Counted from the first letter of the stretch, positions 3,784 through 58,141 are shown. The stretch: 64,000 nt of DNA from an uncultured Candidatus Saccharibacteria bacterium (GCA_964592525.1 CAZQFB010000001.1:212413-276412); one strand, 5' to 3'. The notes: generated by a model not told the origin, from the sequence alone. Program-made: numbers and translations.

Positions 3784-4533
3784 ATGGTCAATAATAAAAC
3801 CATATCTGTAGTAATACCCTGTCACAATGAGGAGGAAAGTATTCTCCACACACTCTCCATGGTGCCAAAAGAGGTTGATGAGGTAATAGTAGTAGATAAT
3901 CTCTCAAGTGACAGGACTGCTTCTAATGCGCGTGAGGCTGGAGCTACTGTGGTTTTGGAAGAAAATAAGGGCTATGGTTATGCTATCAAGGCAGGTATCA
4001 GAAGCGCTTCCGGAGATGTGGTGATAGTCGCGGACGGTGATGGAACTTATCCTTTTGAGCTTGCGACTACTTTGGCTTCTCATCTTGTAACTAGTAACTT
4101 AGAGTTTATTTCCTGCTCAAGATTTCCTCTTACCACTAAAGAAAGTATGTCGCCGGTAAATGTGCTTGGAACAAAAATATTAAACCTCGTTGCCTTTATG
4201 TTGTATGGTGTTTGGTTTAGGGATATTCTCTCTGGAATGTGGGTTTTTAAAAGAGAGGCAGTAACGCAATTAGATTTGGTGAGTAATGATTGGAATCTTT
4301 CAGAAGAGATAAAGATAGAGGCGGCAAGGAAAACTAAATTTAAAGAGGTTCATATTAACCATAATGTTAGATTAGGTGAAACAAAATTGATGAAATGGTA
4401 CGTGGGTTTGGAAAATTTAGTTTTTCTTTTTTGGAAAAGGTTTTTCCCAACTCGCGCTTTACCAACCTGTTTTAGAATCACACAATATCAGAATAAGTTT
4501 GAACCTACACCAAATATAAAAAATGAAAAGTAA
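3784..4533 (+). CDS. GT2 family glycosyltransferase (polyprenol-phosphate sugar synthase-like)
   Basis: The N-terminal ISVVIPCHNEE...VIVVDNLSSDRT...GYGYAIKAGI...VVIVADGDGTYP is a classical GT-A/DPM-synthase DxD architecture. Confidence 0.75.
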   Translation: MVNNKTISVVIPCHNEEESILHTLSMVPKEVDEVIVVDNLSSDRTASNAREAGATVVLEENKGYGYAIKAGIRSASGDVVIVADGDGTYPFELATTLASHLVTSNLEFISCSRFPLTTKESMSPVNVLGTKILNLVAFMLYGVWFRDILSGMWVFKREAVTQLDLVSNDWNLSEEIKIEAARKTKFKEVHINHNVRLGETKLMKWYVGLENLVFLFWKRFFPTRALPTCFRITQYQNKFEPTPNIKNEK

Positions 4534-51523: not shown

Positions 51524-53394
51524 AGAAAAGAAAGTATTATGCTCCTTCCCACATTGGTAAACTGGCTTGGCGGCGGAATTCGCGCCAGCCTAAATTTTCC
51601 CCCGCTAAATTTTTAACCCGGAAGAGAAAAACGATCATTGCTGTATTAACCCTAGTATTAGTGATTAGTTATTTTGCCTTGTTAAGACCTGTGGTGGTAG
51701 CTTACGCGACGGCGTCTAGTTTTAAAAAGAGTGCTCATAAGATAGCTGAAGAAATGAGGGAGCAAGATTTTGAAGCAATCTTGAAGGAGCTAGGCAAGAT
51801 GGAAAAAAAGATGGTTAAGCTTAATGATGTGGTGGGTCAATACCAGTATCTCTCTTTTATTCCCGGTACTGCAGTTTATTTTAAGGACTCGGAACATTTA
51901 ACGACAGCAGGGGTTCATGGCTTAAAGGCTTTAAGGATTGGCTTTGAAGCCTTAGAGCCGTATAAAGAAATTTTGGGGTTTAAGGATGATGTTGGTAGTA
52001 ATAAAGAACAGGACGTAAATAAATTAGTGGCAGCGGTAAACGTGTTACCGAAACTTGAGCCCCGCTATGACGAAATTGCGGTGGAAGTACATGCTGTTAG
52101 GTTGGCCTTAGATCAGGTAAAGCCAGCTGACTACCCCCAGCAACTAAAGGGTATTAAGGTCCAAGAGCAGCTATATTTTGCGCAAGAAATGTTACATCGT
52201 TTTGATGATGGTGCGCCCACAATTAAAGCATTCTTATCTAAACTACCTTCGGTTATGGGTGATCCGGCGTTTGGGGATAAGAAATATTTGATTTTAATGC
52301 AAAACGACAAAGAGCTTAGGGCTTCAGGAGGTTTTTTGACTTCTTATGCCATATTAACCTTGCGTGAGGGTAGTGTGGCTGATGTTGTGGCTGCCGATAC
52401 TTATGATTTAGATCAGCGGATCGGTTTGGTAACCGAACCCCACCCGGTGTTATCAAAATATCTGCAATTAGACCACTGGTTTGCCCGAGATGCTAACTTT
52501 TCCCCTGATTATGTGGAATCAGCCAAAACATTTTATGAGTTTTGGCAGATGGTGCCAAATGAAAATATTGACGGTATCTTTGCCATTGACACTGAAGTAC
52601 CGGCTGGGTTTTTGGAAGTGTTAGGCCCTGTCACTATTGAAGGCTATGAGGAGAAGTTTGATAGTGGAAATATTATTGAATTAATGAGTGACCAGGCTCG
52701 TGAATTGAGGGAGCATCGTGATCGTAAAGCCCTTATTGGGTTGTTGTTAGCTTCTTTGGAAAGCAAGGTTTTTGATGCTCCCCAAGAGCAATGGGCGCCT
52801 TTGTTTAAAAAGGTGCTGGAATTGCTATATGAAAAACATTTGTTACTCTATGCATTTGATCCGGAAGTGCAGAGTTTTTTTGAGGCCTTTAATTTTGCTG
52901 GTCGGGTAGTTGAATACCCCAACGATTATCTCTATGTTAATGACACAAATTTAGCTGGTGGTAAAGCCAACTTTTATATTGAGCAAACTATTACTAAAGA
53001 GGTGTACCCAGAGGGTGATAGCCTGGTATCAAGGGTTGCTGTAAAGTACCACAACCAGGGTGAGTATGAAGCGGAGATTAACCCGGGGTATCAGAGTTAC
53101 GTGCGGGTCCATGTGCCTCTGGGTTCAGAGTTGCTGGCTTCTTCAGGCTCCCTGGAGGCGGTCAAAACCGATACTGATTTAGGTAAAACTGTCTTTATCG
53201 CTCTTAATTTAACTCCGCCCAAGGAAGAGTCAGAATTAATATTCCGTTATAAATTACCTTCTCACCTCACTTTGGCTAATTATTCACTCTTGCTGCAAAA
53301 ACAGCCGGGTAAACCAAATGATCCTTATCGCGTGGTGGTTGGTGATTTTGTTGAGGAATTTGAGTTACGAACTGATAAGGAAATCAAGCTCTAG
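51520..53394 (+). CDS. large secreted/anchored protein, DUF4012-like
   Basis: The 624 aa protein has an N-terminal TM anchor and is hydrophilic thereafter. The DUF4012 assignment rests only on size, topology and location after the initiating transferase; no motif was matched. Confidence 0.3.
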   Translation: MKKRKYYAPSHIGKLAWRRNSRQPKFSPAKFLTRKRKTIIAVLTLVLVISYFALLRPVVVAYATASSFKKSAHKIAEEMREQDFEAILKELGKMEKKMVKLNDVVGQYQYLSFIPGTAVYFKDSEHLTTAGVHGLKALRIGFEALEPYKEILGFKDDVGSNKEQDVNKLVAAVNVLPKLEPRYDEIAVEVHAVRLALDQVKPADYPQQLKGIKVQEQLYFAQEMLHRFDDGAPTIKAFLSKLPSVMGDPAFGDKKYLILMQNDKELRASGGFLTSYAILTLREGSVADVVAADTYDLDQRIGLVTEPHPVLSKYLQLDHWFARDANFSPDYVESAKTFYEFWQMVPNENIDGIFAIDTEVPAGFLEVLGPVTIEGYEEKFDSGNIIELMSDQARELREHRDRKALIGLLLASLESKVFDAPQEQWAPLFKKVLELLYEKHLLLYAFDPEVQSFFEAFNFAGRVVEYPNDYLYVNDTNLAGGKANFYIEQTITKEVYPEGDSLVSRVAVKYHNQGEYEAEINPGYQSYVRVHVPLGSELLASSGSLEAVKTDTDLGKTVFIALNLTPPKEESELIFRYKLPSHLTLANYSLLLQKQPGKPNDPYRVVVGDFVEEFELRTDKEIKL

Positions 53395-54158
53395 TGTCCA
53401 CTATCAGAATTGAGGGGGTGGTGGTTAAAGTACGGAAATATGGAGAGAAAGATCGCCTGCTCACCATTTTTACCAGGGAACGGGGGAAAATTACAGCTTT
53501 AGCAAAAGGTTCTCGTTCTTTATGTAGCAAACGTTCACCTCATCTTGATTTGTTGTGCCACAATGAATTTATTTTAGCTACTGGATATGCTTGGGACATA
53601 GTGTTGGATACTTTTCCCATCCCCGGTAAGCGCCGAGATACGCCAACTCTTTCCCACATCGCGCAACTGTATTATTCAGGTGAGTTACTGGATTTATTTT
53701 TAGCGGATAAGCAAGCTAATGCTTTAATTTACGATGCTTTGGTAAACTTTCTCAATTCGCTAGTGAGATACCCAAGCCATGGGAATTTGTATACACAATT
53801 TCTCCTTCGTTATCAGTTGGCGGTACTAGAAGCGAGTGGTTTTAGTCCAGAGCTCCATAAATGTTTAGTATGCCAGCAACCCCTTTCTCCCACGACAGTC
53901 TATTTTAGCCCCCAAAAAGGTGGGGTGATATGTGCATCTTGTGCCGGTCAGGTACTAGATTCAGTTGTGATGAGTTTAGAGGCGCTTAAAGTAATGCGCT
54001 TTCTCAAAAAAGCGAGTGATGATGAAATAGCTTTATTGCTATTGCGACAGAAATTGCTGGCCGAGGTTCAAACGCAACTTAATCGGCATATTGAGTGGGT
54101 GGGCGAACGAAAAATGAGGACAACTTCACTATTTAATGAACTTAATAAGTTTAGCTAA
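53394..54158 (+). CDS. recO: DNA repair protein RecO
   Basis: The N-terminal OB fold is IEGVVVKVRKYGEKDRLLTIFTRERGKITALAKGSRS. A C-terminal Cys4 zinc finger is present (CLVCQQ...CASC). Confidence 0.75.
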   Translation: MSTIRIEGVVVKVRKYGEKDRLLTIFTRERGKITALAKGSRSLCSKRSPHLDLLCHNEFILATGYAWDIVLDTFPIPGKRRDTPTLSHIAQLYYSGELLDLFLADKQANALIYDALVNFLNSLVRYPSHGNLYTQFLLRYQLAVLEASGFSPELHKCLVCQQPLSPTTVYFSPQKGGVICASCAGQVLDSVVMSLEALKVMRFLKKASDDEIALLLLRQKLLAEVQTQLNRHIEWVGERKMRTTSLFNELNKFS

Positions 54159-54312
54159 CGTTAGGGATATGAGAAGTTGCGACCAACGGGAGCAATTTGG
54201 GTGGAGAAGTCTGCAAGACTTCGTAACCTCATATCCCTTGTTATATTCCCCGAAGGGCTGAAATTTAGTGCAACGTCCCGAAGGGAAATTTCAGAGTTGC
54301 TCGGCGGCGGCG
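54158..54312. repeat. repeat element A (imperfect palindrome GGGATATGAG...CTCATATCCC, a duplicated CCCGAAGGG motif and the IR arm ttgctcggcggc)
   Basis: The inverted-repeat arms lie at 54158-54167 and 54208-54217. A CTAACGTTAG palindrome overlaps the recO stop. ttgctcggcggc at 54297-54308 is the reverse complement of 55152-55163. Confidence 0.5.
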
Positions 54313-55125
54313 TTAAACTTTAATCTCCATTCCATCAAAGACAAAATCAAAATCCATATCAGAATATTGTTTTTTCATTTTTTGGAGATGCTTCTCTCCC
54401 CAAATATTGATTTCAACTTCTTCAATGTGGGTTATAAGGGTTCTTTTTGGTCTAATCTCTCTCAATCTTTGCATCAAGGCATCGAAAGAAATTTCAGAAG
54501 GAATATCGGAAAATAAACCGCATTCATTTATCAATAAATCTAAATCTCTGAAATTTTTGTAATTATCGAAACTAATAGTATCACAAGGAGCATATAAAAC
54601 TTTTTTGCCGTTACTTTCAATCAAGAAGGCATAAGTTTCGGATTCTTTTCCCTTATAACCCACAACAGTTATAGAAACATCTCCGATTTTGATTTTGTCT
54701 CCATCTTCGATAAGGTGCAATGCCCCTGTTTTCTGGACATTGATATAGTATTCAATAACAGGAAATCTTTGCTTAAGGGTCTCGAAAACTTTTTTTGCAA
54801 CATAAATATTAACAGTTCTATCTGCTTTGCCTGTTCTGAAATTATAATACGATTCAAGAAGATGTCTTAAACCGAATGTATGATCTGGATGCCAATGAGT
54901 AATAAATAGATTATCTACTTGTTTTATATTTCTTCGGTTTAAAGAATCCGCAATATCTTCACCGCAATCAATAACTGTATTTATCTCATTGATAAAGATA
55001 GAACTGCTGTTTCGTTTGAATGGTTCTCCAAGTTTTCGAGCTTTCTTGCAAATTGTACATTGGCAGTATGGTCTTGGTGTGGGCATTGCACCGCCAGAAC
55101 CTAAAATCGTAAGTTTCATACTCAT
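54313..55125 (-). CDS. MBL-fold metallo-hydrolase (PhnP/PqqB-like phosphodiesterase type)
   Basis: ILGSGGAMPTPRPYCQCTIC...ITHWHPDHTFGL has the HxHxDH motif plus the N-terminal Cys cluster typical of PhnP-like enzymes. It lies in an AT-rich segment. Confidence 0.65.
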   Translation of the reverse strand: MSMKLTILGSGGAMPTPRPYCQCTICKKARKLGEPFKRNSSSIFINEINTVIDCGEDIADSLNRRNIKQVDNLFITHWHPDHTFGLRHLLESYYNFRTGKADRTVNIYVAKKVFETLKQRFPVIEYYINVQKTGALHLIEDGDKIKIGDVSITVVGYKGKESETYAFLIESNGKKVLYAPCDTISFDNYKNFRDLDLLINECGLFSDIPSEISFDALMQRLREIRPKRTLITHIEEVEINIWGEKHLQKMKKQYSDMDFDFVFDGMEIKV

Positions 55126-55300
55126 ACTATTTTCCTTAAAGTTTATAATTGTTTTGATTTAGCCGCCGAGCAATTGAATATAACGTCTGCGTGTATGAGA
55201 AGTTTCGCCGACTTCTCTATTATCTATAAAATGGAGGCGAAATTTGGGTGAAAGAAAAAGTGCAACCCTTGAAAATCATTAACGCACTTTTTCTTGAATC
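55126..55300. repeat. repeat element B (degenerate copy of element A: GTGTATGAGA...TCTCATACAC palindrome, atgagaagtt / aatttgggtg / agtgcaac blocks)
   Basis: The inverted-repeat arms lie at 55181-55190 and 55290-55299. It shares ordered sequence blocks with element A, and gccgccgagcaa at 55152-55163 is inverted relative to A. Confidence 0.5.
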
Positions 55301-55326
55301 TCATACACACTGTTATCGGATGTAAT

Positions 55327-55809
55327 TTAATAATTTTTTGGTATAAGCGAGATAATCTCCTCTACTGTTTCTTCTGGCGTTTGGTCAGTGTTATCAATAA
55401 TTTTGCCAAAAGCAGGCTGCGATATTCCAATATCATAATGATGCTTAATGCGATCGCGTTCCCATTGTGTCAATACTCTATCATTTGTATCGCTTTGCGC
55501 CTTTTTGATATCCGGCGATAGCGTGAAGAAATGTAATTCACTCCCCGTAAGTGCTGTTTTTAAATACTCATAGTTTTTTTGAGATAAGGGATAAGTAATC
55601 ACAACGTTATATCCATGTTTGGCAAAATTATTGATAACTAACACAGCATTTTCTAGGTTAATCGGAATCGCTTTATCTATTTCCAGCCAATGGATAAATT
55701 CGCGAAAACTATCAATCTCCACATTTGCTGTGTTTGGTATTTTACTGGTAAGTATTTTGGCTACCGTAGATTTTCCAGCGTTTATTGAGCCATTAATAAA
55801 GATGATCAT
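55327..55809 (-). CDS. P-loop kinase, chloramphenicol-phosphotransferase (CPT)-like / zeta-toxin-like small NTP-binding protein
   Basis: A Walker A motif sits at the extreme N-terminus (MIIFINGSINAGKST). The protein is 160 aa and lies in an AT-rich segment. Confidence 0.5.
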   Translation of the reverse strand: MIIFINGSINAGKSTVAKILTSKIPNTANVEIDSFREFIHWLEIDKAIPINLENAVLVINNFAKHGYNVVITYPLSQKNYEYLKTALTGSELHFFTLSPDIKKAQSDTNDRVLTQWERDRIKHHYDIGISQPAFGKIIDNTDQTPEETVEEIISLIPKNY

Positions 55810-55884
55810 TTAAAAAAAATTATTAAATTATTTCCGATAACTGGTAATTATGCAATTATTATAATATAACATATACCATATTAT

Positions 55885-56733
55885 GTGTATTATGCATACT
55901 TATGTTATTTTGTTAATATGCAAAACATATTAAATAATACCGATAGAGCTTTGCGCTTGCGAAACTATTCCCCAAGAACAAAAAGCGCATATTTGCTTTA
56001 TATTAAGGACTATATCACCTTCTCAAAGCGTGCTGAATTCAAGAACAAACAACAAGCTGTTGAAGACTTTTTGCTTGATAAGCACAAACAAGGAAAATCC
56101 CCGCAAACAATTAATCTCGCCCTCAATGCTATAAAATTCTTGTACCATGAGGTAATAAAAGATCCGCAGAAAATTGATGTGAGGTATGCAAAAAGAAGTA
56201 AGAAACTGCCCATTGTATTGTCCCGAGCAGAAATTAATAAAATTATTGAGGCTACAGAAAACCCTAAATACAGACTGATGATTTCACTTAGCTATGGCTG
56301 TGGTATGAGAGTGAGTGAAGTTGTTAATCTAAAAGTTGCTGATTTGGATATTGACGATCTTGTGGTGCATATCAAAGGAGCAAAAGGCAGAAAAGATAGA
56401 ATTAGCGTGTTGCCCGAAAAGTTGCAGAACGACTTGCGAAACAGCATTGCTGGCAAATATATGAGCGAGTTTGTCTTTGCTTCCAATCGCGGGGGTAACC
56501 TAACAACCACATCATTGCAAAAAATGTTCCGCCAAAGTCTGACCAAGGCAAAGGTGCATAAACCCGCTACTTTTCACTCACTCCGACATTCTTTCGCAAC
56601 ACATCTACTTGAAAACGGTGTTGATGTTCGCTATGTGCAGGAGCTTCTTGGTCATCAAAATATTCGGACTACGCAAATATACACGCAAGTTACAAACCCA
56701 AGCCTTAAAAATATCAGCAGCCCCCTTTGTTAA
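55885..56733 (+). CDS. tyrosine-type site-specific recombinase (XerC/XerD-IntI superfamily integrase)
   Basis: The C-terminal catalytic region is HSLRHSFATHLLENGVDVRYVQELLGHQNIRTTQIYTQV (R-H-R-Y). An upstream box I is present (GMRVSEVVNLKVADLD). It is divergent from the two AT-rich cassette-like genes. Confidence 0.8.
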   Translation: MYYAYLCYFVNMQNILNNTDRALRLRNYSPRTKSAYLLYIKDYITFSKRAEFKNKQQAVEDFLLDKHKQGKSPQTINLALNAIKFLYHEVIKDPQKIDVRYAKRSKKLPIVLSRAEINKIIEATENPKYRLMISLSYGCGMRVSEVVNLKVADLDIDDLVVHIKGAKGRKDRISVLPEKLQNDLRNSIAGKYMSEFVFASNRGGNLTTTSLQKMFRQSLTKAKVHKPATFHSLRHSFATHLLENGVDVRYVQELLGHQNIRTTQIYTQVTNPSLKNISSPLC

Positions 56734-56785: not shown

Positions 56786-58141
56786 ATGGCGACTTTGGAG
56801 CAGATAGTTTCTTTATGCAAAAGACGTGGGTTTGTTTTTCAATCTTCTGAAATCTATGGCGGTTTCTCCGCTGTATATGACTATGGCCCCTATGGTGTGG
56901 AGCTGGCTAGAAACATTACCCACCATTGGTGGAAAGCCATGGTTCAGGATCATGAGAATATCGTGGGTTTAGATGCGGCTATTTTTATGCATCCCAAGGT
57001 GTGGGAAGCCTCTGGTCATATGAGTGGGTTCTCCGACCCTTTGGTGGAATGCAAGAGTACGGGTGAAAGATTGCGGGTAGATCTTCTTTTGGAGGAGGTT
57101 GGGGTAAGGGCCGATGAAAAAATGAGCCTTTCCGAAATCCAACAACTCTTTGATGAAAACTTTGAGCAACTCAACCTGCCTTCCCAAGACAGAGCAGACT
57201 ACTCACCAGTTCGCGCCTTCAATCTACTCGTAAAATCAAATCTTGGTGACTTCACTCAAGAAGGAGACGAGGTTTCTTATTTAAGAGGAGAAACCGCACA
57301 AGGAATCTATGTCAATTTTAAAAATGTGGTGGATTCCACTAGGCAAAAAGTACCTTTTGGCATCGCTCAAGTGGGTAAAGCTTTTAGAAACGAAGTAACC
57401 GCTCGTCAGTTTATCTTTCGCACCCGTGAGTTTGAGCAAATGGAGATGCAATATTTTGTGCACCCTGATTTGGAGATGAAAGAATATGAGGGTTGGAAAG
57501 AAAGAAGAATGCAGTACTACCAAGATTTAGGCATTGCCGAGAATAAACTACGTTGGGCTAAGCATGAAAACTTGGTTTTTTATGCTAAAGAGGCTTTTGA
57601 TATTGAATATGAATTTCCCTTTGGGTTTAAAGAAGTTGAGGGGTTACATGCCAGGGGTGATTATGACCTTTCCCAGCATAGTAAATATTCCGGGGTGGAT
57701 TTGACTTACTTTGACCCCCACACCGAGGAGAAATATATACCTCATGTGGTGGAAACTTCCACGGGAGTGGCTCGCAATCTGCTGATGCATTTGTGTAATG
57801 CGTACGCGGAAGAAGAAGAACGGGTTGTGCTTAAGCTTCCCTATCAATTGGCTCCCGTTAAAGTGGCTGTTTTTCCTCTGCTTAGGAACAAGCCAGAGCT
57901 GGTGACTCGTGCCAGGGAAATATTTAACAACTTAAAAGTCAGTTATATGTGCGAGTTTGATGATAACGGCAACATCGGTAAGCGTTACCGTCGTCAAGAT
58001 GAGATCGGCACTCCCTTTTGTGTCACTGTAGATTTTGATTCCCTTCAGCAAGGTGATGTGACAGTCAGAGAAAGAGACTCAATGAAGCAGGAGCGGTTGA
58101 GTGCTGACGCACTGCTTGCATATTTATCACCAAAACTTTAG
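56786..58141 (+). CDS. glyQS: glycine--tRNA ligase (dimeric class II GlyQS type)
   Basis: The N-terminus LCKRRGFVFQSSEIYGGFSAVYDYGPYG is very characteristic. The FRNE motif and a C-terminal anticodon-binding domain are present. Confidence 0.85.
   Translation: MATLEQIVSLCKRRGFVFQSSEIYGGFSAVYDYGPYGVELARNITHHWWKAMVQDHENIVGLDAAIFMHPKVWEASGHMSGFSDPLVECKSTGERLRVDLLLEEVGVRADEKMSLSEIQQLFDENFEQLNLPSQDRADYSPVRAFNLLVKSNLGDFTQEGDEVSYLRGETAQGIYVNFKNVVDSTRQKVPFGIAQVGKAFRNEVTARQFIFRTREFEQMEMQYFVHPDLEMKEYEGWKERRMQYYQDLGIAENKLRWAKHENLVFYAKEAFDIEYEFPFGFKEVEGLHARGDYDLSQHSKYSGVDLTYFDPHTEEKYIPHVVETSTGVARNLLMHLCNAYAEEEERVVLKLPYQLAPVKVAVFPLLRNKPELVTRAREIFNNLKVSYMCEFDDNGNIGKRYRRQDEIGTPFCVTVDFDSLQQGDVTVRERDSMKQERLSADALLAYLSPKL

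What the first reader, a model, noticed from the sequence alone, without database searches (positions are those of the whole stretch)
54158..55300. Repeat architecture bracketing the MBL gene: degenerate direct copies and a 12 bp inverted pair
The intergenic regions on each side of the MBL gene carry degenerate copies of one element. Each copy has an imperfect palindrome (GGGATATGAG...CTCATATCCC in copy A, GTGTATGAGA...TCTCATACAC in copy B) and shared ordered blocks (atgagaagtt-cg-c, aatttgggtg, agtgcaac). Copy A also has a duplicated CCCGAAGGG motif. A 12 bp inverted pair (ttgctcggcggc at 54297-54308, gccgccgagcaa at 55152-55163) directly brackets the MBL gene. A GTTTAAC/GTTAAAC site sits next to the A-side arm, and GCTAAC-GTTAGGG overlaps the recO stop. 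Both fit the integron RYYYAAC/GTTRRRY core pattern only imperfectly. These could be attC-like recombination sites, MITE/REP-type elements or regulatory sites.
Basis: seen in the sequence. Interest (0 to 1): 0.5.

Follow-up and report, generated by a model that had tools for sequence, protein, structure and literature searches.

The report
Integron-like gene cassette recombination sites
The repeats on either side of the metallo-beta-lactamase-fold gene are the recombination sites of a tiny two-cassette gene-capture element (integron-like) in an ultra-small CPR bacterium, and its neighbouring integrase lacks the extra domain that defines all known integron integrases.

Summary
The two "degenerate copies" are two homologous, structured recombination sites on the minus strand (54148-54251 and 55173-55323). 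Each lies just 3' of a minus-strand ORF.

Its best matches are integron integrases (TIGR02249; VchIntIA, PDB 2a3v), but it lacks the IntI-specific domain.

The layout is that of an integron: integrase, then an attI-like site (ACCAG|TTATCGG), a kinase-like cassette, site B, an MBL (Apyc1-like) cassette, site A, then the recO stop codon.

Main evidence:
- **Structure:** the hairpin stems covary (25 and 148 sites; 0/500 shuffles reach the observed score).
- **Cassette ends:** each cassette's 5' end is complementary to its own 3' R'' arm. This explains the 12-nt and 28-nt inverted pairs.
- **Distribution:** no other copy exists in the 64 kb window.
- **Link to the integrase:** in metagenomes such sites form co-oriented arrays, and 19 of 21 co-occurring integrases sit upstream on the opposite strand.
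- **Gain and loss:** two near-identical genomes differ by cassettes next to the integrase.
- **Mobility:** the MBL cassette recurs at about 92% nucleotide identity in an unrelated contig, and homology starts and stops at the GTT boxes.

Verdict: an integron-like platform of a new variant. The REP/MITE and regulatory readings are rejected.

The parts
55918..56733 (+). Tyrosine recombinase (271 aa), IntI-related but lacking the IntI-specific additional domain. The catalytic R131, K156/K159, H220, R223, H246 and Y255 are conserved.
   Evidence: Pfam SAM_4 plus Phage_integrase. Best NCBIfam hit is TIGR02249 integron integrase, 230 bits against a cut-off of 265, matched in two stretches. Best PDB hit is VchIntIA 2a3v, E 1e-49, skipping chain residues about 212-241. 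An alignment with five canonical IntIs shows insertions of 31 and about 11 aa that are absent here.
55830..55862 (-). attI-like site. Cassette-sense sequence GCATAATTACCAG|TTATCGGAAAT, with the inferred crossover between G55841 and T55840.
   Evidence: The same motif (G-Y-ATAA-N6-7-A|GTT...) lies next to the integrase in L004, L009, L011, L018, L023, L035 and L049. L008 and L009 are identical up to ...GCGCGCGTTAT and diverge after it.
55184..55840 (-). Cassette 1: 5' arm TTATCGGAAATAATTTAATAATTTTTT, the P-loop kinase-like ORF (55327-55809) and attC-like site B.
   Evidence: ORF, with weak CPT / zeta-toxin / AAA matches. Its 5' end and its own R''-proximal 3' end form the 28-nt, 93% inverted pair 55814-55841 / 55312-55339 (pair I1, 18/20).
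R'' CCGATAAC (AAC at 55314-55312), L'' GTGTATGAGA (55308-55299), two internal hairpins around TCACCCAAATTT, L' TCTCATACAC (55200-55191), spacer GCAGAC, R' GTT (55184-55182).
   Evidence: CM R1 gives 82.3 bits, E 3e-17. Fold z-scores are -5.6 and -4.4. A homologous site lies behind a different ORF in L009 (nhmmer E 2e-16).
54159..55183 (-). Cassette 2: 5' arm TTATATTCAATTGCTCGGCGGC, the MBL-fold (Apyc1-like) ORF (54313-55125), the 3' outer-stem arm, a 47-nt module and attC-like site A.
   Evidence: The same cassette occurs at about 92% nucleotide identity in L091/L092. Homology begins at GA(C/T)|GTTATATTC and ends at ...GTTA|. Both of its flanks in L091 are CM hits.
55162..55173 (.). 12-nt arm GCCGCCGAGCAA on the + strand. 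This is the 5' outer-stem arm of cassette 2 and the partner of 54297-54308.
   Evidence: pair I22. The arm is conserved, with a 3-nt insertion, in L091.
54297..54308 (.). 12-nt arm TTGCTCGGCGGC on the + strand. This is the 3' outer-stem arm of cassette 2.
   Evidence: pair I22; conserved in L091.
54249..54295 (-). 47-nt conserved module CTCTGAAATTTCCCTTCGGGACGTTGCACTAAATTTCAGCCCTTCGGG, inserted between the outer-stem arm and R''. It holds the duplicated CCCTTCGGG mini-hairpins. Its role is unknown.
   Evidence: It is identical in L039, behind a different ORF, and about 95% identical in L091. L097 has a version without the duplication.
R'' GAATATAAC (AAC at 54242-54240), L'' GGATATGAGG, hairpin, CCACCCAAATT, hairpin, L' CTCATATCC (54173-54165), spacer CTAAC, R' GTT (54159-54157). 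The R' overlaps the recO stop codon TAA (54156-54158).
   Evidence: CM R1 gives 64 bits, E 7e-13. Fold z-scores are -4.2 and -3.6. Sequence read directly.
53394..54158 (+). recO, the chromosomal gene that abuts the last cassette junction. It is not part of the element.
   Evidence: Pfam RecO_N and RecO_C.

Best explanation
Window 54159-56733 is a small chromosomal integron-like element in a CPR (Patescibacteria) genome.

**Layout.** A tyrosine recombinase related to integron integrases is transcribed rightwards. Two promoter-less cassettes are transcribed leftwards from the shared intergenic region. Each cassette is one ORF followed by a structured attC-like site.

**Site architecture (cassette-sense strand).** Each site reads: R'' arm (ACATC-nnn-YAAC), 1-3 unpaired nt, L'' stem (G-Y-ATAT-nn-G-GTT), one or two variable hairpins around a C.CCCAAATT junction, L' stem (AAC, two bulged nt, C-nn-ATAT-R-C), 4-6 unpaired nt (..NAC), then the R' arm (GTTA-nnn-GAAAT).

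**Proposed mechanism (inferred).** The recombinase cuts and rejoins at G|TT of R'. Recombination between two successive R' boxes releases a circular cassette. In the circle, the cassette's 5' end (TTA-nnn-GAAAT...) closes onto its own R'' arm, which gives one long hairpin. Re-insertion happens at the attI-like site (ACCAG|TT) next to the integrase, where the AT-rich region can supply a promoter.

**Shown here.** The layout, the covarying hairpin, the own-end complementarity, cassette boundaries at GTT in two contexts, cassette gain or loss next to the integrase, and the statistical link to this recombinase family.

**Inferred only.** That this recombinase catalyses the reaction. That the site acts as a folded single strand with one-strand exchange, as in integrons. 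Which strand is used.

The palindromes are the L stems. GCTAAC/GTTAGGG is the last R' box. The 12-nt pair is the outer stem of the MBL cassette.
For: 1. **Integron geometry.** Both ORFs lie on the strand opposite the integrase, and each is followed by a site.
2. **Integrase affinity.** It scores higher against the IntI model than against Xer models (TIGR02249 230 bits; XerC/XerD about 180 bits). Its best solved relative is VchIntIA.
3. **Structure under selection.**
   - On 25 sites from integrase-anchored loci, 92% of cells pair, 13 of 18 pairs show double changes, and 0/500 shuffles reach the score.
   - This includes pairs 15/245 and 16/244, which my site picker did not impose (CG12/GC9/AU2 and CG9/AU6/GC4/UA2).
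   - The result repeats on 148 metagenomic sites.
4. **Own-end rule.** In 22 of 28 sites, the 20-mer ending in R'' AAC has its best reverse-complement partner (15-18 of 20) exactly at the GTT of the preceding site or attI. It matches its own R' only about 9 of 20.
5. **Cassette mobility.** Window and L091 are unrelated up to GA(C/T)|GTTATATTC. They are then about 92% identical through the ORF and attC up to GTTA|, and unrelated again after that.
6. **Gain and loss at attI.** L008 and L009 are 99.7-99.9% identical. They differ by a 2.6-kb block of integrase-proximal ORFs flanked by a 23-nt L'-spacer-R' repeat.
7. **Not dispersed.** There is no further copy in the 64 kb window with filters off.
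8. **Integrase-independent sampling (metagenome pattern scan).**
   - 19 of 21 site-integrase co-occurrences have the integrase upstream on the opposite strand.
   - 11 of 23 sites with at least 5 kb of upstream flank have such an integrase.
   - 38 loci hold two or more sites and none has mixed strands. Median spacing is 1138 nt.
9. **Composition.** GC is 30-36% across the element against 41-46% in the flanks.
Against: - **Missing domain.** The integrase lacks the IntI-specific domain. That domain is reported as necessary for integron recombination (Messier & Roy 2001, as cited in PMC9668308), and in VchIntIA it contacts the extrahelical bases (my knowledge of 2a3v).
- **Non-canonical core boxes.** CGATAAC / GTTATAT do not fit RYYYAAC / GTTRRRY. 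The spacer geometry (1-3 vs 4-6 nt) and the bulge on the L' side also differ from canonical attC.
- **Extended arms.** The arms are long and sequence-conserved, and L'-6 nt-R' looks like an ordinary double-stranded core site. Double-stranded recombination is therefore not excluded.
- **Strand undecided.** Wobble counts do not decide which strand folds (GT 66 vs AC 121, of which 42 are at one pair).
- **No promoter shown.** Promoter-like matches are not enriched (12 vs 7.6 +/- 3.0).
- **No circles seen.** No circular cassette or recombination event was observed for this organism. L001-L003 are the same allele.
- **Some homologues lack sites.** Several MBL homologues (L093-L096, L098) sit without any detectable site.
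Confidence: 0.85

Rival explanations
1. The recombinase is the cell's chromosome-dimer resolvase, a single Xer like XerS, XerH or XerA. The site beside it would be dif. The 'cassettes' would be small integrative elements that exploit Xer (IMEX-like) and have piled up at dif.
For: The family has been classed as Xer-related 'Cand' recombinases, presumed to replace Xer (PMC8138268). No second tyrosine recombinase exists in the 64 kb window. L'-6 nt-R' resembles a dif-type core with arms of about 11 bp. xerS/difSL adjacency and folded-hairpin CTX-phi integration are precedents (my knowledge).
Against: GC skew stays positive across the whole window, with no switch at 54-56 kb. In L008/L009 the array lies next to parA/parB, which usually sit near the origin. 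Arrays reach at least 7-8 co-oriented sites. The protein scores higher against the IntI model than against XerC/D. Central spacers differ between sites (GCAGAC, CTAAC, GCGGAC ...), which argues against homology-dependent two-strand Xer exchange. A dual role is not excluded.
Confidence: 0.08
2. The copies are REP- or MITE-type dispersed repeats. They would have no dedicated recombinase and happen to flank the MBL gene.
For: They are imperfect palindromes of 85-135 nt in intergenic DNA. Related sequences occur in many genomes.
Against: Only two copies exist in 64 kb, both beside the integrase. In other loci they form same-strand arrays at gene-length spacing, never mixed strands. The linkage to the integrase is strongly directional (19 of 21). 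Cassette boundaries fall at GTT. There are no terminal inverted repeat plus target-site duplication signatures.
Confidence: 0.03
3. The hairpins are primarily regulatory RNA or DNA structures, such as transcription terminators, attenuators or protein-binding operators for the two ORFs.
For: They lie directly 3' of ORFs and fold stably. Integron attC sites are known to influence downstream expression (my knowledge), so a secondary role is possible.
Against: No T-tract follows the stems on the cassette-sense strand. The only terminator-like match in site B is on the antisense strand, and the count is at background (2 vs 1.3). There is no Rfam family match. A terminator reading does not explain why the same site type follows unrelated ORFs in different phyla. 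It also does not explain the complementarity between a cassette's 5' end and its own 3' arm.
Confidence: 0.03
4. The inverted repeats that flank each ORF (28 nt around the kinase-like gene, 12 nt around the MBL gene) are substrates for inversion switches of the shufflon or fim type.
For: Each ORF is bracketed by inverted arms next to a tyrosine recombinase.
Against: All ORFs in all arrays examined point the same way relative to the integrase. All sites within a locus share one strand. The variants observed are insertions and deletions, not inversions.
Confidence: 0.01

Closest known systems
Canonical integrons (class 1; Vibrio chromosomal integron with VchIntIA and VCR/attC sites)
   Same: The integrase is divergent from an array of co-oriented, promoter-less ORFs. 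Each ORF is followed by an imperfect palindromic site with outer ..AAC / GTT.. boxes, an unpaired spacer, an inner stem with bulged bases and a variable tip. The crossover is at G|TT. The R' box is chimeric, so each cassette's own R' is at its 5' end. Insertion occurs at an attI beside the integrase. Structure is conserved more than sequence.
   Different: The integrase is about 50 aa shorter and lacks the IntI-specific domain. The boxes do not fit RYYYAAC/GTTRRRY. The arms extend to about 12 nt with conserved ACATC / GAAAT and a fixed 2-nt mismatch. The unpaired spacer is 1-3 vs 4-6 nt, and the bulge sits on the L' side. A conserved C.CCCAAATT junction is present. Complementarity continues 10-20 nt beyond the R boxes into the cassette. 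The CM built from these sites finds nothing beside canonical IntI genes in L064, L082, L086 and L090.
Archaeal integrons (Ghaly et al. 2022, PMC9668308)
   Same: These are cassette arrays in uncultivated lineages, including DPANN (Nanoarchaeota). Most arrays have no detectable IntI ('CALINs'). attC types are shared across domains. Here, a 57-nt stretch of site A (the 47-nt module plus the R'' arm) is identical in a Pacearchaeota-labelled MAG, beside a 44%-identical short integrase.
   Different: The six archaeal IntIs reported there carry the IntI-specific domain, because that domain is IntegronFinder's criterion. The recombinase here does not. CPR bacteria are not mentioned in that paper or in the IntegronFinder 2.0 paper.
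'Cand' subgroup of Xer-related simple tyrosine recombinases (Smyshlyaev et al. 2021, PMC8138268)
   Same: Short, two-domain, Xer-like recombinases typical of candidate phyla. This protein very probably belongs to that group.
   Different: That paper presents the group as a likely substitute for Xer. Here the family sits next to variable cassette arrays and structured sites.
Xer/dif with IMEX elements (CTX-phi, pdif modules of Acinetobacter plasmids)
   Same: A simple tyrosine recombinase acts on short core sites. CTX-phi uses a folded single-stranded hairpin with one-strand exchange. pdif modules are genes bracketed by recombinase sites (my knowledge).
   Different: The locus is not at a skew switch. 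The units are single promoter-less ORFs in long co-oriented arrays next to the recombinase gene. Each site is a covarying hairpin, not a fixed dif sequence.

Membership tests
Integron (canonical, as defined for IntegronFinder) | Integrase carries the IntI-specific additional domain around patch III | tested here: not met
   HMMER alignment to VchIntIA skips chain residues about 212-241. In an alignment with five canonical IntIs, insertions of 31 and about 11 aa are absent from the window protein and from its CPR, archaeal, Flavobacteriia, Paenibacillaceae and Spirochaetota relatives.
Integron (canonical, as defined for IntegronFinder) | Integrase passes the curated integron-integrase model (TIGR02249) | tested here: not met
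   It is the best-scoring family, but at 230.3 bits against a cut-off of 265, matched in two stretches.
Integron (canonical, as defined for IntegronFinder) | attI insertion site next to intI, with insertion at G|TT | tested here: met
   A conserved G-Y-ATAA-N6-7-A|GTT motif lies at the integrase-proximal end of arrays. L008 and L009 diverge immediately after ...CGTTAT. Window site: ACCAG|TTATCGG at 55841/55840.
Integron (canonical, as defined for IntegronFinder) | Array of co-oriented cassettes, each one ORF plus one attC at its 3' end | tested here: met
   Window: two ORFs and two sites on the minus strand. Other loci: arrays of up to 7-8 sites, never mixed strands, median spacing 1138 nt.
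Integron (canonical, as defined for IntegronFinder) | attC is an imperfect palindrome R''-L''...L'-R' whose structure, not sequence, is conserved | tested here: met
   Fold z-scores are -3.6 to -5.6. Covariation: 13 of 18 pairs show double changes and 0/500 shuffles reach the score, on 25 and on 148 sites. These sites also keep more primary sequence than canonical attC.
Integron (canonical, as defined for IntegronFinder) | Core consensus RYYYAAC / GTTRRRY with about 5/6-nt spacers and extrahelical bases on the L'' side | tested here: not met
   Observed boxes are CGATAAC, ATATAAC / GTTATAT, GTTAGCT. The unpaired spacer is 1-3 vs 4-6 nt, and two bulged nt sit on the L' side. The canonical values are from my knowledge of attC (aadA7, VCR).
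Integron (canonical, as defined for IntegronFinder) | Cassettes are mobile units bounded at the R' crossover | tested here: met
   The MBL cassette occurs in two unrelated contexts, with homology starting and ending at GTT. The own-end rule holds in 22 of 28 sites.
Integron (canonical, as defined for IntegronFinder) | Sites detected by the IntegronFinder attC covariance model | not testable with these tools
   That model is not in Rfam. Rfam gave no match.
Integron (canonical, as defined for IntegronFinder) | Pc promoter drives the cassettes | tested here: inconclusive
   Promoter-like hexamers on the cassette strand lie at 55916-55889, 55908-55880, 55889-55861 and 55847-55819. The count is not above shuffles (12 vs 7.6 +/- 3.0).
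Integron (canonical, as defined for IntegronFinder) | Recombination of the folded bottom strand with single-strand exchange | not testable with these tools
   Counts of mispairs do not decide the strand.
REP / MITE dispersed repeats | Many copies scattered through the genome, independent of a neighbouring recombinase | tested here: not met
   There is no further copy in 64 kb with filters off. In metagenomes, 19 of 21 co-occurrences have the integrase upstream on the opposite strand. The rest of this genome could not be searched.
Xer/dif | Single site at the replication terminus (GC-skew switch) | tested here: not met
   GC skew is positive in all sixteen 4-kb bins of the window. The L008/L009 array is beside parAB. 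Sites are multiple.
Intrinsic terminators | GC-rich stem followed by a T-run on the transcribed strand | tested here: not met
   No terminator-like site on the minus strand lies within either copy. The total count is at background.

The most novel reading that the evidence does not exclude
CPR bacteria and DPANN archaea may carry a widespread, so far unrecognised branch of integrons, with related arrays in Flavobacteriia, Paenibacillaceae and Spirochaetota. Its integrase is IntI-related but lacks the hallmark additional domain. It would instead recognise longer, partly sequence-specific arms on a hairpin site.

This would explain many 'integrase-less' cassette arrays (CALINs). It would give a route for cassette exchange between ultra-small bacteria and archaea; the MBL/Apyc1-like cassette and the 47-nt site module are shared between a CPR bacterium and a contig or MAG that may be archaeal. 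It would also show that the extra domain is not required for structure-specific cassette recombination.
Probability: 0.5. Interest if true: 0.85.

Novelty: new variant of a known kind. Interest (0 to 1): 0.72.

Why it matters
- **Definition of an integron.** In practice integrons are defined by an integrase domain that this system lacks, so tools such as IntegronFinder would not call this integrase. If the short recombinase really runs these arrays, the additional domain is not essential for cassette capture.
- **Missing diversity.** A large slice of integron diversity in the most abundant uncultivated lineages would have been missed or filed as integrase-less arrays.
- **Gene flow in CPR and DPANN.** It also gives a concrete mechanism for gene flow in CPR/DPANN episymbionts with tiny genomes. 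This includes a cassette related to anti-defence cyclic-nucleotide nucleases.
- **Annotation.** It reassigns a recombinase family that has been presumed to be a Xer substitute.

Tried and rejected
- **Loose hairpin scanner.** A scanner with an 8-nt stem and variable spacers was too noisy to use. Stricter versions gave 88 hits against 21 in shuffled sequence. I used them only to pick candidates, and covariation was then judged on pairs the scanner did not impose.
- **C.CCCAAAT junction as a signature.** This motif is present only in a subset of sites, so I dropped it.
- **Rfam.** The scan of 53900-56000 at E<=1 gave only a chance snoRNA hit.
- **Literature.** Searches for integrons in CPR, Patescibacteria or DPANN, or for attC-like sites with domain-less integrases, found nothing relevant. 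Subscription-only papers were not covered.
- **Other MBL homologues.** L093-L096 and L098 have no detectable site. L097 has only the downstream site and an eroded 5' boundary.
- **Kinase-like ORF.** No homologue exists in any held locus. I ran no further search on it.
- **Archaeal origin of L039.** A Pfam scan of its neighbours was not diagnostic, so the label rests on the depositor's binning. L091's archaeal origin is inferred only from an archaeal-type AdoMet synthase.
- **Folding strand.** Wobble versus A-C counts were inconclusive.
- **GTTTAAC/GTTAAAC.** Rejected as a core site because it is the MBL stop-codon region.
- **'agtgcaac'.** Rejected as a homologous block.
Full report
**What is there**

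The interval lies between recO (53394-54158, +) and a glycyl-tRNA synthetase gene (56786-58141, +). Between them are two minus-strand ORFs:
- an MBL-fold protein at 54313-55125;
- a small P-loop kinase-like protein at 55327-55809.

There is also a plus-strand tyrosine recombinase at 55918-56733. GC is 30-36% from about 54200 to 56200, against 41-46% on both sides.

- The second 12-nt arm is at 55162-55173, ten bases from the stated position.
- 'agtgcaac' is not in a homologous position in the two copies.
- GTTAAAC at 54312 is only the MBL stop region.
- A longer inverted pair (28 nt, 93%) brackets the kinase-like ORF (55312-55339 / 55814-55841).

**The neighbouring recombinase**

It has the SAM_4 and Phage_integrase domains. 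Its best curated family is the integron integrase model TIGR02249, at 230 bits against a cut-off of 265. XerC and XerD models give about 180 bits.

Its best solved relative is VchIntIA (2a3v, E 1e-49). The match comes in two pieces that skip chain residues about 212-241. The catalytic R, K, H-x-x-R, H and Y residues are all kept.

The protein is therefore IntI-related but lacks the IntI-specific additional domain.

Homologues of 270-271 aa at 76-81% identity occur in many CPR lineages (Kerfeldbacteria, Vogelbacteria, Moraniibacteriota, Saccharibacteria, Magasanikbacteria).

**Anatomy of the two copies**

Read on the cassette-sense (minus) strand, both copies share one architecture:

1. R'' arm ...YAAC.
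2. A short unpaired spacer.
3. L'' stem.
4. One or two variable hairpins around C.CCCAAATT.
5. L' stem.
6. A longer unpaired spacer.
7. R' arm GTTA....

For site B the elements are CCGATAAC-AGT-GTGTATGAGA ... TCTCATACAC-GCAGAC-GTTATATTC. For site A they are GAATATAAC-AAG-GGATATGAGG ... CTCATATCC-CTAAC-GTTAGC. The final GTT of site A (54159-54157) overlaps the recO stop codon.

Both strands of both copies fold much better than shuffles (z -3.6 to -5.6).

**The same architecture elsewhere**

In loci fetched through the integrase, the recombinase is again divergent from runs of small, mostly uncharacterised ORFs. The spacers between those ORFs carry the same architecture.

I aligned 25 such sites (A2):
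- 92% of cells pair.
- 13 of 18 pairs show changes on both sides.
- No shuffle out of 500 reaches the observed covariation.
- Sliding the partner by 1-3 columns destroys the signal.

Pairs 15/245 and 16/244 were not required by my site picker, yet they covary freely (CG, GC, AU and UA types).

A covariance model built from A2 (R1) finds only the two known sites in the 64 kb window with filters off. It finds further sites in CPR loci, always upstream of the integrase and on the opposite strand.

**Evidence that the sites bound mobile cassettes**

- **Own-end rule.** For 22 of 28 sites, the 20 nt ending in the R'' AAC have their best reverse-complement match in the whole upstream region (15-18 of 20). 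That match sits exactly at the GTT of the preceding site, or of the integrase-proximal attI-like motif. The match to the same site's own R' is at chance, about 9 of 20. This is the expected pattern if crossover is at G|TT, because each cassette then carries its own R' remainder at its 5' end. The rule explains both inverted pairs in the window. The kinase cassette starts GTTATCGGAAATAATTTAAT... and ends ...ATTAAATTACATCCGATAAC. The MBL cassette starts GTTATATTC-AA-TTGCTCGGCGGC and ends GCCGCCGAGCAA-[47-nt module]-GAATATAAC.
- **A conserved mismatch.** A 2-nt mismatch (GAAAT against ACATC) recurs in almost all sites.
- **Cassette gain or loss.** Two assemblies with the same integrase (L008, L009) are 99.7-99.9% identical. 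L009 has an extra 2.6 kb of integrase-proximal ORFs, flanked by a 23-nt repeat of L'-spacer-R' (GGATTATCCGCGC[G/A]CGTTAT), and a further 0.5-kb cassette.
- **The MBL cassette recurs.** In contigs L091/L092 the protein is 94% identical and the DNA about 92% identical. The context is unrelated: a restriction-modification system, a radical-SAM gene, an archaeal-type AdoMet synthase, and no integrase within 8 kb. R1 hits lie on both sides. Alignments show no similarity up to GA(C/T)|GTTATATTC. Near-identity then runs through the 5' arm, ORF, outer stem, 47-nt module and site. Similarity is lost again right after GTTA|.

**Link to the recombinase, tested without using it as bait**

I scanned metagenome contigs for the 5' signature ACATCNNNTAACANNGYATATNNGG. 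The scan gave 131 sites in 120 loci.
- Of 21 site-integrase co-occurrences, 19 have the integrase upstream on the opposite strand.
- Of 23 sites with at least 5 kb of upstream flank, 11 have such an integrase within 5 kb.
- R1 finds 201 hits (E <= 1e-3) in the first 100 of these loci.
- Among the 150 best hits, 38 loci hold two or more sites and none mixes strands. Median spacing is 1138 nt.
- Covariation holds on 148 distinct sites.

More copies do exist, but they sit in arrays tied to this recombinase family, not scattered.

**Mechanism**

The best-supported reading is an integron-type cycle:
1. The recombinase exchanges strands at G|TT of R'.
2. Adjacent R' boxes recombine to excise a circular cassette.
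3. The cassette's ends then close into one long hairpin (outer stem, R box, asymmetric bubble, L box with two bulged bases, variable tip).
4. Insertion occurs at the attI-like site ACCAG|TTATCGG (55841/55840), beside an AT-rich region with promoter-like hexamers pointing into the cassettes (not significant).

Shown: geometry, structure conservation, boundaries, gain and loss, linkage. Inferred: catalysis by this protein, use of a folded single strand, and which strand is used.

The central spacers differ between sites. This argues against homology-dependent two-strand exchange, but a double-stranded L'-6 nt-R' core site cannot be excluded. Mispair counts do not settle the strand.

**Rivals**

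- **Xer/dif with piled-up IMEX elements.** This is the most serious rival, because the family has been classed as a Xer-like 'Cand' group (PMC8138268) and no other recombinase is in the window. Against it: GC skew does not switch here, the L008/L009 array is beside parAB, the arrays are long, and the protein is closer to the IntI model.
- **REP/MITE, terminator and inversion-switch readings.** These fail on distribution, strand consistency, the absence of T-tracts and the absence of inverted variants.

**Comparison with known systems**

The element works like an integron, but it fails two defining membership tests:
- The IntI-specific domain is absent.
- The canonical RYYYAAC/GTTRRRY geometry, with L''-side extrahelical bases, is not met.

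The published archaeal integrons (PMC9668308) report 539 attC sites but only six IntIs, all with the extra domain, and most arrays there are 'CALINs'. Neither that paper nor the IntegronFinder 2.0 paper mentions CPR. My full-text searches found no description of such a system. I therefore rate it a new variant of a known kind. The caveat is that the literature library is incomplete.

**Limits**

- Only 64 kb of this genome was available.
- L001-L003 are the same allele, so no polymorphism was seen in this organism.
- The archaeal labels of L039 and L091 rest on the depositor's binning and on one marker gene.
- E-values from the shortened CM calibration are rough.
- The A6 alignment is fitted to the model and was partly selected by the search pattern.

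Noticed in passing
window 54313-55125 (-): Close homologues of the MBL-fold cassette protein (94% identity, P0121) carry the precomputed Pfam family PF23023 Anti-Pycsar_Apyc1. Related proteins occur in Patescibacteria, Nanoarchaeota and other archaeal MAGs. This could be a cyclic-nucleotide-degrading, anti-defence-type enzyme carried as a mobile cassette by an episymbiont. My own Pfam scan reported only the Lactamase_B families.
   Followed up: partly
L052, L054, L056, L057, L059, L061, L071, L078, L088, L089 (integrase at about 10001; sites at 11-20 kb, + strand): Integrase relatives at 36-40% identity, also without the IntI extra domain, occur in Flavobacteriia, Paenibacillaceae and Spirochaetota. 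They have arrays of R1-type sites downstream on the same strand as the integrase. L057 has more than ten sites between ORFs of 144-339 aa. The Flavobacterium protein has an extra N-terminal extension of about 90 aa.
   Followed up: partly
window 54249-54295 (-); L039 190-136 (-); L091 about 3915-3962: The 47-nt module CTCTGAAATTTCCCTTCGGGACGTTGCACTAAATTTCAGCCCTTCGGG lies between the outer-stem arm and R''. It is identical in a Pacearchaeota-labelled MAG behind a different ORF. L097 has a shorter version without the duplication. It contains an R'-like GGGACGTTGCAC. Its role is unknown.
   Followed up: partly
L004 6606..6029 (-); L009 5574..5086 (-); window 55143..54272 (-): Some ORFs sit inside an attC-like hairpin, between C.CCCAAATTGCTC and G.TCGCAACTTC. 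Examples are a DpnI-like 145-aa ORF in L004 and a small ORF in L009. In the window, AAGGAAAAT (the MBL ribosome-binding region) and ATTTCCCTT-CGGGAC-GTTGCAC bracket the MBL ORF in the same way. This could be nested insertion at a secondary site, or chance.
   Followed up: no
L012, L014-L017, L020, L022, L024-L028 (integrase within 600 nt of a contig end); L001-L003: Many contigs end just upstream of the integrase. The three Logan contigs from this organism end inside site B. This is what strain-variable or hairpin-rich cassette arrays would do to short-read assemblies.
   Followed up: no
L009 7960-7760 (-); L011 9050-8990 (-); L049 8250-8200 (-): ORF-less mini-cassettes consist only of the outer stem closed by a conserved loop: GTTATNCAAAAT-TCCGCTCCGCTCC-ATTTTGNATAAC.
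   Followed up: no
window 55918-56733 and P0002-P0120: The integrase is 76-81% identical across CPR lineages that are otherwise deeply divergent (labels from Saccharibacteria to Vogelbacteria and Kerfeldbacteria). This suggests horizontal spread or very strong constraint.
   Followed up: no
L009 4242-4761 vs L008 7387-7392: The second indel between L008 and L009 (a 0.52-kb cassette with a 132-aa ORF) has its junction in the shared ACATCA of the R'' arm, not at a GTT. One flanking site is a hairpin-less R''-TTT-R' junction (ACATCATATAC-TTT-GTTATGTGG). So not every event maps to the canonical crossover point.
   Followed up: partly
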